A stretch of DNA of 64,000 nucleotides. It comes from an uncultured bacterium (lineage in GTDB: Bacteria; Chlamydiota; Chlamydiia; Chlamydiales; SM23-39). The notes beneath the pieces are model-generated. The model saw only the letters and a list, made by a program, of their open reading frames with translations. It made no database searches and was not told the origin of the DNA. Positions 19,921 to 23,850 of this stretch are shown here, one piece after another; position 1 is the first letter of the stretch; every line of letters starts with the position of its first letter. The stretch is from positions 1,504,001 through 1,568,000 of the forward strand of contig OY970323.1 of the NCBI GenBank assembly GCA_963716985.1, given 5' to 3'. A program made the translations under genes and the position numbers.

Positions 19921-21141
19921 CTATCTCTTTCCAAAAATCGCAAGAGCATGAAAATCTGCCAATAATTGCAAAGCAATCAGAATCAGCCCGGTCAAAAAGA
20001 TCACTCCCAAAAGAAGGTTTCCTCCCCTTACCCGATAAGGCGACTCAATCTTTTTCTTTCTGAGACGAAAGACCATCCAAGCGGGCAACACTACATGGGA
20101 AAAGGCCACGCAAATCGCTGCTTTGCCAAGCGCTAAAATGAAACCCTTTGGATAGAAGAAAGCAAATAGAGCCGGAGGAACAAAGGTAAAAAAAGCAATC
20201 GATCCCCTTCCCGAAAGTCTTTTTTGCTTCTTAAAAAAATCAGCTAAAAAATTAAAAAGACCTAAACTGACCCCCAGAAAACAGGTGGTCACTGTGATGT
20301 TGGCAAAGCCGTGAATAGCACTTTCAATCCACTTGTTTTTCAAAAAGGAAGAAAACATGAGCACAAACTCTCCCACAGATCCTTTTTGCAAAGCGAGTTG
20401 CAAAAAACCATCCAGGGGCACAACGCCCATCGTGACTGCCAGCCAAAAAAGATAGAGGACCAGCGTCAAAAAACTACCCCAAAAAAGCACGAATTTTAAC
20501 TGCTTTTTTTCATAATGCAAATACTGGCCCAGCACAGGAATTAAAATGTGGTAGCCAAAAGCACAAAGAAAAATGGGAGCCGCCGCCCACAGATACTTGC
20601 TCGAATGATTGGAAAACGTTAACAGATGTACGTCCACTTTCTGCAAAGAAAGGCCAATGAACAAAATCAAAAGCAGTCCCTTCAAACTAAAGAAAAAGCG
20701 ATTTAAATAATCCACCGCTTGAATTCCATGAAAAACGACAAGCCCAAAGAGGGCGACAAAGAGCAAACTACAGGATTCGCTCGACAGATGGATCTGCATC
20801 TGTTGGAATAATTCATTCAATAAAGACCCTCCCGCAGAAACATACGCGGCAACTAAAGCATAGAGAAGAATCAGATAGCTCAGTACAGTTGCCACCTTTC
20901 CTGGATTTCCCAGCGTTAGAAATGCCATGGAAGAAAAATTGGTTTTGGAAAAGGGAAATGCTAAATTCACTTCTAAAAAAAGAAAACCCGTGATCAGCAT
21001 CAAAAGCCACATAAAGATAAGCAAACAGGAGGCAGCGAAAAAACTTACTCCCGCACTGACCAGAGGAATTGCTAATATCCCTCCTCCTATCAGTGTGCCC
21101 ATGAGAAGAAATACACTTCCGATCATTTTACCGAATTGCAT
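19921..21141 (-). CDS. tyrP: Aromatic amino acid permease (TyrP/Mtr family)
   Basis: GTLIGGGILAIP, LFLEVNL, AFGYH..IP, TTCFLGVSLGL; ~11 TM segments. Confidence 0.9.
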   Translation of the reverse strand: MQFGKMIGSVFLLMGTLIGGGILAIPLVSAGVSFFAASCLLIFMWLLMLITGFLFLEVNLAFPFSKTNFSSMAFLTLGNPGKVATVLSYLILLYALVAAYVSAGGSLLNELFQQMQIHLSSESCSLLFVALFGLVVFHGIQAVDYLNRFFFSLKGLLLILFIGLSLQKVDVHLLTFSNHSSKYLWAAAPIFLCAFGYHILIPVLGQYLHYEKKQLKFVLFWGSFLTLVLYLFWLAVTMGVVPLDGFLQLALQKGSVGEFVLMFSSFLKNKWIESAIHGFANITVTTCFLGVSLGLFNFLADFFKKQKRLSGRGSIAFFTFVPPALFAFFYPKGFILALGKAAICVAFSHVVLPAWMVFRLRKKKIESPYRVRGGNLLLGVIFLTGLILIALQLLADFHALAIFGKR

Positions 21142-21439
21142 AGAACCTCAGTTTTTTGTTTTTTCAACTTCAGATTAAAAATAGTAAATAAAAAATGATG
21201 GCTTCAAGGAGAGTACTGGCTCAAGCGCCAGTAATAATGAGAAAAACAAAGAGAACGGAACCTATGCCCACAAGAATGGGGCAGGTGTTCAACGAGATGG
21301 TGTGTAAATTCTAATGATTCAGAATGGATCATCAACATATCTTACGACTTTTTGCAACTGCTTCTAAATAAGTTCACATGTGGGTCTCCTGTCCATGGTT
21401 ACACAAACTTTCTTTAAACTTGCTCATCACTCTATACTG

Positions 21440-21560
21440 CGCACTCTTCTAAAACGGGATGATCGTCGGTCTTACGACAAACGATCTCACCAATGATGTT
21501 ATCGGTGATGATGCAGACCAAGCTCATAATCGGGCGTTTAGCACCAATGCATTTCCGGCC
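21440..21560. ncRNA. Candidate IS110 bridge/seek RNA (two guide loops); strand not established, + strand suspected
   Basis: Parallel motifs CTTCTAAAacggg...ctCACCAATG and gCTCATAAtcggg...gCACCAATG whose variable parts match the donor end and the target. Confidence 0.7.
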
Positions 21561-21696
21561 TTTAAAGTCGTTGAAAGTTTGCTTGATTACCTGTAAGTTT
21601 TAGTTGATTTTTGTTTTTAGCAAGCTACTAGTGCTCTGTCATAGTTAAAATTTAGGATTATAAGTTTGGCAACGGTCGGCATAAACTCAAGTCAAT

Positions 21697-23124
21697 TTAT
21701 CCTAAAATTAAAGGGTGACAGAGCACTAGCCCATATCCTAGTTCTCGTGCTCGTTTCTGCAATGACAATAGCTGTCTTTCTTTATATGCCTGTTCGTATG
21801 CAGCTTGTCCAACTTCTGTAAAATTTTTGCGCTCTTTCAGCATCGTATACAGAATTTTTGCAAGTTTATGTGCTGCCGCTGTGATCGCTTTTGGAGCACC
21901 GAGTCTTGCTCGCATCCTACGAAAATAGGCGCCAAGGGCTGTTTTGGAGCGGTAAAGGGCATTGGCTGCTAAGCGTAATGCTTGTGCTGCCCTGTTGGCA
22001 GTTGGCTTGGTCTTGCCGCTCAAAATCTTGCCACCGGAAATCTTGTTGCCGGGACAAAGCCCAAGCCAAGAAGCGAAATGTTTCGCACTCGGCCATTTGG
22101 ACATATCCATGCCAATCTCTCCTAGAATTTTTATAATCCCATTCACGTCCAGTCCGGGAATGTCAGTCAAGTTGACGTGAAGAATTCTTTCGAGAGAACC
22201 TTCTGCTTCAAAGTGATATGGACTGAGGTTGTATTTCGTCTTTTTCTGTGTTCCTCGCCCATTTTTACTTGAATGTTCTGCAGGAGTCGATCTTGGAGCC
22301 GGCATATTTTTTTTCGGTTGCGCTTCTTCCCATTTCTTCAGTACTTGCTCTATAGCCTCTTCGCACTCCAAAGCCTGTTGATGGAAAAAATCATAAGCTG
22401 CAAGAGCGTGTTTCAGCGCCAGTAGATGTTCCTCTCGATAGTTGCCATCGAGAGCTTTTGCAATTTCTTTTTCATCTTTTTTGCATCGAGGATCTCGATA
22501 TTTTGCTAAGACTAAGGGAGATCGTTCTCCAGAGACAATCGCTCGTATAATATTCATGCCTGTAGCGCCCGTAATGTCACTCACTACGTGATTGAGTTGG
22601 AGATTCATTTGCACGAGGGCTTTGTGCATCAATTGCACCTGCTGAGAGGCCAATTCAAATAAACGGCTTCTCTGCCTCACATATCCGCGAAGTATGACTC
22701 CTTCATCATCGGGACGAAATGATCCTCTAAGTAATCCGTAGGCGTGTAATTGTTGGATCCATTGGCAATCTTTTACATCGGTTTTTCTACCCGGGACTGT
22801 TTTGAGGTAATATGCATTTACCAATATGACATCTATCCCTGCCTGAGCCAAGATATCGTAAACCGGAATCCAGTATACTCCGGTAGATTCCATTGCTACG
22901 CTCCGGATCTCATTCTGTTGGATCCAGGACAGCATGTTCTTGAGATCCTCTGTGAAGGTTAAATACTCGCGTATTTCTTGGTGCCCATCGGGAAAACCGA
23001 TACAAATGAATACAGAGCTGGCTCCAATGTCTATACCGGCAACACACGGATTTATGGGAGCCAATCTAAAATTAGATGCAGATGCAGGTTGAGTTTTTGG
23101 ATATTTTTTGGTATTTTTTTTCAT
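21697..23124 (-). CDS. IS110-family DEDD recombinase/transposase
   Basis: GIDIG, MESTGVYW, RKTDVKD (DEDD); FASWLGLCP..ISGG (catalytic Ser region); AAAHKLA. Confidence 0.95.
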   Translation of the reverse strand: MKKNTKKYPKTQPASASNFRLAPINPCVAGIDIGASSVFICIGFPDGHQEIREYLTFTEDLKNMLSWIQQNEIRSVAMESTGVYWIPVYDILAQAGIDVILVNAYYLKTVPGRKTDVKDCQWIQQLHAYGLLRGSFRPDDEGVILRGYVRQRSRLFELASQQVQLMHKALVQMNLQLNHVVSDITGATGMNIIRAIVSGERSPLVLAKYRDPRCKKDEKEIAKALDGNYREEHLLALKHALAAYDFFHQQALECEEAIEQVLKKWEEAQPKKNMPAPRSTPAEHSSKNGRGTQKKTKYNLSPYHFEAEGSLERILHVNLTDIPGLDVNGIIKILGEIGMDMSKWPSAKHFASWLGLCPGNKISGGKILSGKTKPTANRAAQALRLAANALYRSKTALGAYFRRMRARLGAPKAITAAAHKLAKILYTMLKERKNFTEVGQAAYEQAYKERQLLSLQKRARELGYGLVLCHPLILG

Positions 23125-23464
23125 GACAAACCTCTTTAGTTGATGTTGTTTCAAATAATCGCGTCGATCATTCTACAGAGGTTTGTCATTTTTTGGGGGT
23201 TTTACCGTATTCTTGTGACCTCACTTATTTTTAGATGTTGCCAGAGACACAGTCCCGGTGAGGAGCTCATAAAGTTGAGGTAAATCCCAATTTTTGGGCT
23301 TTAAGCAACGGTTTATCCATAGAGGACGGAAGCGTTCAAAAAAAGTTTACGCCTCAACTTTATGAGCAGTTGCACTTTTTAGGTATTTTACTCTAAAGTG
23401 AAAAAAAAACAAGGCAGAAAAAAAGAACTCGAACATTTTGATCACTCAATTTGAACGGAGTCAA

Positions 23465-23850
23465 TCAGATCCGGTTTGTGGAATAAATAGCTCCTGGATT
23501 CTCAATAAATTTAGAAACCATTGTAAACTCCCCTTCTCCCTCCTGGGTTAAAGTAACGACCACTTTCTTTGGATAAGAAATAGCTGAAATATGAGTGCCT
23601 CCACAGGGGATTATTGCTTTTCTTCCATCGGGAAATGCGCAATGCCATTCCCTTTTTTCGTGCATATATGCCGTATCAGGAACTACAGATATTTTTATTC
23701 CCTTAGGATGAGCACACCAGTCTAGAAGCTGTTGATTGATATTTGCTTCAACTTGCTTGAATTCAGATTCGCTAAAAAATGCAATACCGTCAAATCCCTC
23801 CTTCCTAAGAGATTTTCCGCATCGATAACGATAGAATACCCATGTTGCAT
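23465..23850 (-). pseudogene. C-terminal fragment of an AlaX-like (alanyl-tRNA editing) hydrolase
   Basis: The frame reads YRYRCGKSLRKEGFD...INQQL..W...REWHC...IPCGGTH; the N-terminal HxxxH part is absent. Confidence 0.6.

What the first reader, a model, noticed from the sequence alone, without database searches (positions are those of the whole stretch)
21430..21560. Readable candidate bridge RNA with donor and target guides, downstream of and possibly antisense to the recombinase
Seen: the ~330-bp non-coding end holds two parallel modules, [CTTCTAAA]acggg...ct-caccaatg (21446-21495) and [gCTCATAA]tcggg...ag-caccaatg (21522-21549). CTTCTAAA equals the core plus the element's own end (21361-21368). 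GCTCATAA equals the core plus the target TIR flank. CTCACC (21486-91) is complementary to GGTGAG at the other element end. A TATACT -10-like hexamer (21433) sits just before module 1 on the + strand. Known: bridge RNAs carry separate donor- and target-binding loops. Inference: this is the guide RNA, placed 3' of the recombinase and possibly transcribed convergently, which would be an atypical layout. The strand is not proven.
Basis: partly seen in the sequence, partly recalled or inferred. Interest (0 to 1): 0.85.

Follow-up and report, generated by a model that had tools for sequence, protein, structure and literature searches.

The report
Bridge RNA downstream of IS110 recombinase
The stretch encodes the guide ("bridge") RNA of an IS110-family jumping gene, read on the same strand as its recombinase rather than antisense, so it is a good example of a system described in 2024, not a new kind.

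Summary
They lie in a 144-nt structured module (window 21421-21564) inside an IS110-family insertion sequence (21363-23265). A covariance model seeded on 12 relatives, without the window, finds this module beside the recombinase gene in 99 places. All 99 are on the recombinase's strand: 86 upstream, 13 downstream. Four helices are supported: 22 of 25 pairs change on both sides, and G-U cells outnumber A-C cells 319 to 41. The RNA strand is therefore the window's minus strand.

The target loop carries UUAUGAG-CU, which equals flank + core + first two element bases. The donor loop carries UUUAGA-AG, which equals the element's other end + core. Three guide variants occur among the genome's four copies, and each matches its own insertion junction 9 of 9.

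The bridge-RNA reading holds. These parts do not:
- the antisense or convergent transcription;
- the TATACT promoter;
- the claim that the layout is atypical, since a 3' position is the published IS1111-type layout.

The 3' position is, however, a relocation within a clade whose relatives carry the module 5'. Recognition of the right half of the donor is unresolved. No expression data could be obtained.

The parts
21363..23265 (-). IS110-family insertion sequence (about 1.9 kb including a nested MITE). The core dinucleotide CT (+ strand) is at 21361-21362 and 23266-23267.
   Evidence: Four copies and two empty sites in the same genome define both ends. Copy B is 100% identical over window 21351-23280.
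21697..23154 (-). Recombinase gene with DEDD/RuvC-like and Transposase_20 domains. In this copy the MITE changes its last residues. The native stop, seen in MITE-free copy C, corresponds to window 21617-21619.
   Evidence: Pfam PF01548 3.7e-18 and PF02371 1.3e-11. Distant match to IS621 and ISCro4 transposases in the PDB. Copy C ORF ends ...GLVAC.
21421..21564 (-). Bridge RNA module of 144 nt, read 5'->3' from 21564 down to 21421.
   Evidence: Model R1 was seeded without the window and hits it at 77.2 bits, E 1.8e-14. Covariation, strand, single-sequence fold.
21516..21560 (-). Target-binding loop closed by helix P1 (GGCCG 21556-21560 with UGGUC 21516-21520). It contains the 5' side GAAAUGCAU (21547-21555), hairpin P2 (21531-21546) and the 3' side AUUAUGAGCU (21521-21530).
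   Evidence: P1 and P2 pairs 98.0% and 99.8% paired, with changes on both sides.
21521..21529 (-). Long target guide UUAUGAG-CU: 5 nt of left flank, core AG, then the first 2 nt of the element (handshake-like).
   Evidence: 9 of 9 identity with the junction at + strand 23264-23272. Copies C and D carry UUAUAAG and UUCAGAG, each matching its own flank. The two columns after the core equal the first two element bases in 0.90 and 0.66 of 58 junctions, against 0.62 and 0.26 shuffled.
21547..21555 (-). Short target guide on the 5' side of the target loop (GAAAUGC + AU), complementary to core position 2 plus right-flank positions 1-4 or beyond.
   Evidence: Antidiagonal complementarity of alignment columns 17, 16, 15, 14 with flank positions 1-4 (z 4.4, 4.5, 4.3, 6.1; n = 67). 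Column 18 pairs with core position 2 in 0.99-1.00. In the window 5 of 7 positions pair.
21424..21511 (-). Donor-binding loop closed by helix P3 (UCAUCAC 21505-21511 with GUGAUGA 21424-21430). It contains the 5' side CGAUAACAUCAU (21493-21504), hairpin P4 (21455-21492) and the 3' side UUUUAGAAGAGUG (21442-21454).
   Evidence: All 8 P3 pairs change on both sides; 6 of 7 P4 pairs do. Helices reproduced by the single-sequence fold.
21446..21453 (-). Donor guide UUUAGA-AG: last 6 nt of the element's recombinase-distal end plus the core.
   Evidence: Identical to + strand 21361-21368. Family-wide, the exact 7-mer is found at the far end in 72 of 93 elements against 2.9 swapped.
21632..21729 (.). Nested palindromic MITE of about 98 bp inserted at CTAG in the last codons of the recombinase gene. 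It is not part of the bridge RNA.
   Evidence: Absent from copies C and D, and more than 30 dispersed copies in the genome. Inverted repeat I1.
23266..23380 (.). Palindromic host repeat of about 110 bp whose arms carry the preferred target GCAACTG-CT-CATAAAGTTGAGG. The element sits in one arm.
   Evidence: Four such repeats in the genome give 8 arms: 6 empty targets and 2 occupied. Inverted repeat I5.
23223..23239 (-). Subterminal inverted repeat at the recombinase-proximal end (ACTTATTTTTAGA, 23223-23235), partner of the terminal TCTAAATAAGT at 21363-21373. It overlaps GATGTT (23234-23239), whose complement AACAUC is the 5' side of the donor loop.
   Evidence: Read. Identity of the donor-loop 5' side with this position across the family. 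Its role is unexplained.

Best explanation
Window 21421-21564, read on the minus strand, encodes the bridge RNA (also called seekRNA) of an IS110-family insertion sequence. It lies 3' of the recombinase gene on the same strand and is most likely co-transcribed with it. The RNA has two internal loops. The target loop is closed by helix P1. Its 3' side, UUAUGAG-CU, would pair with the strand opposite the recombinase-sense strand over left flank + core + two element bases. Its 5' side, GAAAUGC, would pair with the sense strand over core position 2 and the right flank. The donor loop is closed by helix P3. Its 3' side, UUUAGA-AG, would pair in the same way with the element's recombinase-distal end plus the core in the excised circle. 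By holding target and donor together, the RNA would let the DEDD/serine recombinase exchange strands at the shared dinucleotide (AG on the sense strand, CT on the + strand). This would insert the element into the arms of a 110-bp palindromic host repeat. Shown here: element boundaries, RNA structure by covariation, strand, and guide-site matches with their co-variation. Inferred by analogy with IS621 and ISEc11: RNA binding by the recombinase, the circular intermediate, and the strand-exchange chemistry.
For: Recombinase domains. Boundaries from empty sites and paralogues. Model R1 was built from 12 relatives without the window; it finds the module at E 1.8e-14 in the window and in 99 places over 98 sources. 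All 99 are on the recombinase's strand, whether upstream (86) or downstream (13). Structure: 92.3% of 2229 cells paired against 72.7% shuffled; covariation score 0.508 against 0.157 (0 of 500 shuffles) and 0.08-0.10 for slid partners; 22 of 25 pairs change on both sides. Strand: 319 G-U/U-G cells against 41 A-C/C-A. The minus-strand fold is -41.3 kcal/mol, z -1.91, and reproduces P1-P4; the plus strand gives z -0.72. Guides: exact 7-mers in 60 of 93 and 72 of 93 elements against 5.6 and 2.9 with swapped guides. Right-flank complementarity z 4.3-6.1; the handshake-like dinucleotide matches in 0.90 and 0.66 against 0.62 and 0.26. Within this genome, copies A and B carry UUAUGAG, copy C UUAUAAG and copy D UUCAGAG. 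Each is 9 of 9 with its own junction, and copy D also changes the 5'-side base opposite right-flank position 1 in step with its site. The same core dinucleotide occurs in both loops and changes together between clades: AG/AG or AA/AA.
Against: No transcript evidence: no RNA run was listed for this DNA, and that is not evidence either way. No promoter-like site precedes the module on the minus strand, so expression rests on assumed read-through from the recombinase gene. In this copy a palindromic MITE lies between the gene and the module. The short 5'-side target guide pairs at only 5 of 7 positions in the window, and family-wide at about 0.61-0.67 per position. No clear guide for the right half of the donor was found: the swapped-partner test gave 4.36 against 3.99, max 4.38. 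Alignment A4 was fitted to my hand-drawn structure, so pair counts lean towards it. Rows are related, not independent. The flank and element-end columns are circular, because junctions were located by the guide itself, and are not counted as evidence. Rfam has no matching family.
Confidence: 0.88

Rival explanations
1. One reading: the guide RNA is made from the + strand, convergent with and antisense to the recombinase transcript, starting after the TATACT hexamer at 21433.
For: The motifs can be read on either strand. TATACT resembles a -10 box. Watson-Crick helices are strand-symmetric.
Against: On the + strand the 319 G-U cells would become C-A mismatches. These include a near-invariant G-U closing P1 (84 of 92) and a U-G in P2 (91 of 92). 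The + strand fold loses P1 and scores z -0.72. The module keeps the recombinase's orientation in 99 of 99 cases, even where it lies upstream of the gene. No promoter-like site includes TATACT.
Confidence: 0.03
2. The two parallel modules are DNA-level binding sites for the recombinase or a host protein (repeated CACCAATG ... CCCG motifs), and no RNA takes part.
For: The modules are direct repeats of a conserved motif near an element end. Subterminal repeats in IS ends often bind transposases.
Against: Compensatory changes keep four helices (22 of 25 pairs). The G-U bias is strand-specific, which double-stranded DNA sites do not need. The variable segments track the flanks and ends rather than a fixed protein site. 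In relatives studied at the bench the non-coding region acts as an RNA supplied in trans (PMC11187229, passages read).
Confidence: 0.05
3. The guide-site matches are chance, or arise after insertion because the flank is copied into the element.
For: The guides are short (7-9 nt). Copies C and D are single observations.
Against: Swapped-guide controls never reach the observed counts: max 11 against 60, and max 7 against 72. Three different guides each match 9 of 9 in one genome. No mechanism is known for copying a flank into a site about 1.7 kb inside the element.
Confidence: 0.02

Closest known systems
IS621 bridge RNA (IS110 group; Durrant et al. 2024, PMC11208160; Hiraizumi et al. 2024, PMC11208158; passages read)
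   Same: DEDD + Tnp recombinase. One RNA with a target loop followed by a donor loop, each an internal loop with one guide per side pairing with opposite DNA strands. [quoted passage not shown] A dinucleotide beside the core in the target loop matches the donor, like a handshake guide. The RNA is on the recombinase's strand.
   Different: The recombinase is only distantly related (PDB 8wt6, E 9.7e-10, two short stretches) and about 140 aa longer. The RNA is 3' of the gene here, while most relatives have it 5' as in IS621. On the recombinase-sense strand the core reads AG (AA in one clade), not CT. [quoted passage not shown] Equivalently, gene orientation is flipped relative to core polarity. 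Each loop encloses a hairpin (P2, P4). The right-donor guide was not identified.
IS1111-type seekRNA or bridge RNA, e.g. ISEc11 (Siddiquee et al. 2024, PMC11187229, passages read) and ISPa11 (named in PMC11208160)
   Same: Long non-coding end 3' of the recombinase that gives the guide RNA. Subterminal inverted repeats. Insertion into palindromic repeats or other specific sites without target duplication.
   Different: IS1111 transposases are given as about 340 aa; this one is about 479. On a quick tree its nearest relatives carry the module 5', so the 3' position looks like a relocation within this family. The inverted repeat at the recombinase-proximal end lies about 30 nt inside the element, not about 7. 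No IS1111 reference sequence was compared.
ISPpu9 with its Ssr9 small RNA in Pseudomonas putida (PMC12288879; abstract only, seen in the listing)
   Same: IS110-family element inserted into repetitive palindromic sequences, with a small-RNA gene downstream of the transposase gene.
   Different: No sequence comparison was made. The text beyond the abstract was not read.

Membership tests
IS110-family bridge RNA / seekRNA system | Adjacent recombinase with a DEDD (RuvC-like) domain and a Transposase_20 domain | tested here: met
   PF01548 3.7e-18 and PF02371 1.3e-11. IS621 and ISCro4 transposases are the only PDB matches.
IS110-family bridge RNA / seekRNA system | Structured non-coding RNA in a non-coding end of the element, on the recombinase's strand | tested here: met
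   Module in the 254-nt native 3' end. Same strand in 99 of 99. Covariation 0.508 against 0.157. G-U 319 against A-C 41. The transcript itself was not observed.
IS110-family bridge RNA / seekRNA system | Target loop whose two sides match opposite strands of the target on either side of the core | tested here: met
   3' side 9 of 9 with the junction. 5' side complementary to core position 2 and right-flank positions 1-4 family-wide, z 4.3-6.1; 5 of 7 in the window.
IS110-family bridge RNA / seekRNA system | Donor loop whose two sides match both halves of the joined element ends | tested here: inconclusive
   The half from the recombinase-distal end is met: UUUAGA-AG, 8 of 8 in the window, 72 of 93 family-wide. 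The other half is not resolved. The 5' side instead equals a stretch about 25 nt inside the element.
IS110-family bridge RNA / seekRNA system | Guides co-vary with natural insertion sites | tested here: met
   Swapped-guide controls. Three guide variants in one genome, each matching its own site.
IS110-family bridge RNA / seekRNA system | The RNA binds the recombinase and is required for recombination | not testable with these tools
   Needs RIP or co-purification and a transposition assay.
IS1111 group of the IS110 family | Longer non-coding end, with the RNA, downstream of the recombinase gene | tested here: met
   About 110 nt upstream against about 254 nt (native) downstream.
IS1111 group of the IS110 family | Subterminal inverted repeats of 7-17 bp | tested here: inconclusive
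   TCTAAATAAGT (21363-21373) and its partner at 23223-23235 form an 11/13-nt repeat with a 2-nt indel. One arm is terminal and the other about 30 nt inside. This spacing differs from that given for IS1111 members.
IS1111 group of the IS110 family | Transposase related over its full length to that of IS1111 (about 340 aa) | not tested
   No IS1111-group reference sequence was at hand. The protein is about 479 aa and its relatives mostly carry the RNA upstream.

The most novel reading that the evidence does not exclude
This family of long (about 470 aa) recombinases reads its donor in a way not described for IS621. The 5' side of the donor loop is identical to, so would pair with the complement of, a 6-9 nt stretch about 25 nt inside the recombinase-proximal end. 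That stretch abuts the subterminal inverted repeat and is separated from the core by a conserved hairpin. This would imply a looped-out or three-site donor. Separately, the bridge RNA moved from the 5' end to the 3' end of the element within chlamydia-like bacteria, apart from the classical IS1111 group.
Probability: 0.25. Interest if true: 0.65.

Novelty: new member of a known kind. Interest (0 to 1): 0.42.

Why it matters
It adds a well-delimited natural bridge-recombinase system from a clade far from IS621. Both ends, empty target sites and the RNA structure are all in hand. One genome holds three natural guide variants, each at its cognate site, which is a small natural retargeting series. 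The family uses AG or AA rather than CT on the sense strand and puts its long guides on the other side of each loop. Close relatives carry the RNA at either end of the element. The clade could therefore inform how bridge RNAs relocate and how much the loop geometry can vary, both of which matter for engineering. None of this changes the known principle.

Tried and rejected
- Rfam scan at E <= 1 over 20900-23700: no bridge-RNA family. The only hit is a chance-level mir-255 match (E 0.37) on the hairpin at the recombinase start.
- RNA-seq holders: none was listed, so no reads were laid.
- Promoter and terminator scan: nothing above shuffles, and nothing at TATACT.
- RNAalifold on the plain MAFFT alignment recovered only P1 and P2, because P3 and P4 were misaligned. 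I therefore drew the structure by hand and let Infernal realign.
- Search for a right-donor guide:
  - complement of the donor-loop 5' side and P4 arm against the first 16 element bases, with swapped partners, was not significant (4.36 against 3.99, max 4.38);
  - complement against the first 70 bases gave no signal (3 against 2.5);
  - the P4-arm complement is modestly enriched against letter-shuffled ends (11 of 58 against 4.2, max 12, 2 of 500), but its register is not constant.
- The idea that the donor-loop bases after the core match the right target flank (a second handshake) was not borne out on reading the table.
- The careful tree search did not finish, so only the quick tree was used.
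- One search failed because it had too many sources; it was repeated with 98.
- One search failed on a term-syntax error and was not repeated.
- Literature search 'bridge RNA' + 'chlamydia' found one review, seen as a listing only.

Full report
**The observation.**
- CTTCTAAA at 21446-21453 and again at 21361-21368;
- GCTCATAA at 21522-21529;
- caccaatg at 21488-21495 and 21542-21549;
- CTCACC at 21486-21491;
- TATACT at 21433-21438.

GGTGAG is at 23257-23262 and GCTCATAA at 23265-23272.

**The element.** The ORF 23154->21697 on the minus strand has the DEDD_Tnp_IS110 and Transposase_20 domains. Its only PDB relatives are the IS621 and ISCro4 transposases, both distant.

The window's genome is one contig of 2.07 Mb and holds four copies:
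- A, the window copy;
- B, 100% identical to A;
- C, which lacks a nested MITE;
- D, which is broken by an IS66-family element.

Aligning the junctions with two empty sites gives the target GCAACTG-CT-CATAAAGTTGAGG. This sequence lies in the arms of a 110-bp palindromic repeat. The element spans 21363-23265, with CT at both junctions. The genome has eight such arms, six empty and two occupied. Copies C and D sit in other sequences.

A 98-bp palindromic MITE (21632-21729, more than 30 copies genome-wide) landed at CTAG in the last codons of the recombinase gene in copies A and B. Without it the protein ends ...GLVAC and the 3' non-coding end is about 254 nt.

**Relatives.** The recombinase was found in 21 of 301 genomes sampled from the same order (G000 included, E <= 1e-20). 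A scan of one genome per species found 611 confirmed relatives among 619 pattern matches, and 77 loci were kept.

In the recombinase's orientation, the region after the stop codon of the closest relatives shows the same two-module block. In others the block lies before the start codon.

**Structure and strand.**
- I aligned 12 chlamydial-order relatives (A3). The window, L032 and L034 were left out because their 3' parts misaligned.
- I drew four helices by hand and built model R1.
- Over 98 sources (420,575 bases) R1 gave 99 matches at E <= 0.01. The window, which was not in the seed, scored 77.2 bits, E 1.8e-14, at 21421-21564 on the minus strand.
- All 99 matches are on the strand of the nearest recombinase match: 86 upstream and 13 downstream.
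- The downstream set is the window, eleven loci from genomes of the same order, and one second hit at a contig end that is probably the upstream module of a neighbouring copy.

On the model-fitted alignment A4:
- 92.3% of 2229 cells pair, against 72.7% in shuffles;
- 22 of 25 pairs change on both sides;
- the covariation score is 0.508, against 0.157 in shuffles (0 of 500 reach it) and 0.08-0.10 when partners are slid by 1-3 columns.

This alignment leans towards my structure and its rows are related. The slid controls are the fairer comparison.

G-U/U-G cells number 319 against 41 A-C/C-A. One P1 pair is G-U in 84 of 92 rows and one P2 pair is U-G in 91 of 92. On the opposite strand these would be mismatches.

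The window's minus strand alone folds at -41.3 kcal/mol (z -1.91, 7 of 200 shuffles as good) into P1-P4. The plus strand gives -32.8 kcal/mol (z -0.72, 49 of 200) and loses P1.

The RNA strand is therefore the recombinase's strand.

**Anatomy in the window** (RNA 5'->3', running from 21564 down):
- P1: GGCCG with UGGUC.
- Target loop, 5' side: GAAAUGCAU.
- Hairpin P2.
- Target loop, 3' side: AUUAUGAGCU.
- P3: UCAUCAC with GUGAUGA.
- Donor loop, 5' side: CGAUAACAUCAU.
- Hairpin P4, which begins UGGUGAG.
- Donor loop, 3' side: UUUUAGAAGAGUG.

They are scaffold, not guides.

**Guides.** All sequences here are in the recombinase's orientation. The junction at the recombinase-proximal end reads TTTATG-AG-CTCCTC. 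The other junction reads TTTAGA-AG-CAGTTG.
- The target-loop 3' side, UUAUGAG-CU, equals 5 flank bases + core + the first 2 element bases.
- The donor-loop 3' side, UUUAGA-AG, equals the last 6 element bases + core.

Family-wide, 93 of the 99 hits had both guide columns filled. Of these:
- the exact target 7-mer lies within 300 nt upstream in 60, against a mean of 5.6 (max 11) when guides are swapped;
- the donor 7-mer lies at the far end in 72, against 2.9 (max 7).

I then took junctions located by these 7-mers, so the guide columns themselves are circular and are not counted. Three results are independent of that:
- the two columns after the core in the target loop equal the first two element bases in 0.90 and 0.66 of 58 junctions, against 0.62 and 0.26;
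- the 5' side of the target loop is complementary to right-flank positions 1-4 (obs 0.61-0.67 against 0.36-0.49; z 4.3-6.1; n = 67);
- its next base pairs with core position 2 (0.99-1.00).

The core changes together in both loops between clades: AG/AG or AA/AA.

Within this genome:

| Copy | Target-loop guide | Its own flank |
|---|---|---|
| A, B | UUAUGAG | TTATGAG |
| C | UUAUAAG | TTATAAG |
| D | UUCAGAG | TTCAGAG |

Copy D's 5' side also changes G->C opposite a C->G change at right-flank position 1.

[quoted passage not shown] The core is CT on the strand that carries the RNA and the gene. A dinucleotide next to the core on the 3' side is a handshake guide (passages read).

Here the long guide that equals the sense strand is on the 3' side, and the sense-strand core is AG or AA. 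If the + strand is taken as 'top', the core is CT and the geometry is exactly that of IS621, handshake-like dinucleotide included. The genes are then on the bottom strand. I could not see the figures of the six other bridge RNAs in PMC11208160, so I cannot say whether this arrangement is already drawn there.

**Layout.** A 3' RNA is the published IS1111-type layout, so the placement is not atypical for the family as a whole.

Within this clade it is the minority state. The quick IQ-TREE used 77 of the 99 rows; partial, interrupted and duplicate rows were dropped, and the careful search did not finish. On it the downstream-RNA elements fall into two well-supported clades, window+L032+L033+L034 and L039-L042. 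One long-branch row (L050) and the doubtful contig-end hit (L128) also carry the label. Other elements from the same order (L035, L036, L061) carry the RNA upstream. Both layouts keep homologous ends, namely the terminal TTATTTAG.AG and an inner AAATAA repeat. So the module moved, not the crossover point.

**Unresolved.** No clear guide for the right half of the donor was found.

It lies, however, in the 5' arm of P4, and it is only weakly enriched family-wide: 11 of 58 against 4.2, with 2 of 500 shuffles as high.

Unexpectedly, the 5' side of the donor loop is identical to a 6-9 nt stretch about 21-30 nt inside the recombinase-proximal end (about 51 nt in L046 and L047), next to the subterminal repeat. 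In the window this is AACAUC, which appears on the + strand as GATGTT at 23234-23239. Runs of at least 6 nt occur in 13 of 57 elements, against 3.1 with swapped partners (max 11, 0 of 500). The complement shows nothing. Between the core and this stretch most relatives have a hairpin. I have no tested explanation for this.

**Expression.** No RNA run was listed. The promoter scan found nothing at TATACT and nothing ahead of the module on the minus strand. Co-transcription with the recombinase gene is an inference from the published systems.

**Verdict.** This is a real bridge RNA of a known kind. The strand is corrected to minus, and the 3' position is ordinary for the family at large but derived within this clade.

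Noticed in passing
window 21632-21729: A palindromic MITE of about 98 bp (31-nt arms) sits at a CTAG in the last codons of the recombinase gene of copies A and B. It replaces the C-terminal ...AC with ...LCHPLILG and separates the gene from its bridge RNA. More than 30 copies are dispersed in the genome, some in tandem.
   Followed up: partly
window 23123-23189: A 17-nt inverted repeat (94% complementary) pairs ATGACAAACCTCTTTAG with CTACAGAGGTTTGTCAT across the likely Shine-Dalgarno and ATG of the recombinase. It would hide the start site in the mRNA. Relatives L039, L041 and L042 have an equivalent repeat. It gave the chance-level mir-255 hit.
   Followed up: no
window 23266-23380; genome C1:1911928-1912037, 1943663-1943778, 414316-414418: Four copies of a 110-bp element with 22-bp perfect terminal inverted repeats (GCAACTGCTCATAAAGTTGAGG...). 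It serves as the landing pad of this IS. Its own nature (REP-like or MITE) was not examined.
   Followed up: partly
genome C1:852665-857356 (locus L138): Copy D of the IS is split by a 2.9-kb IS66-family element (DDE_Tnp_IS66 1.2e-77, TnpB_IS66 3.4e-28).
   Followed up: yes
genome C1:1579719-1579779: A solo 61-bp fragment (95% identity) of the recombinase-distal end of the IS, with no recombinase gene nearby.
   Followed up: no
loci L075, L093, L132, L069, L125: In several other bacteria two copies of related elements lie head to tail within 2 kb, giving two model hits per locus. Such tandems could be intermediates for moving the RNA module from one end to the other.
   Followed up: no
loci L039-L043 (flanks after the element end): In one chlamydial clade the right target flank is a G+C-rich hairpin of terminator type (for example TGCGGCGATTATTCGCCGC). 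The first 20-25 nt of these elements are themselves a similar hairpin.
   Followed up: no
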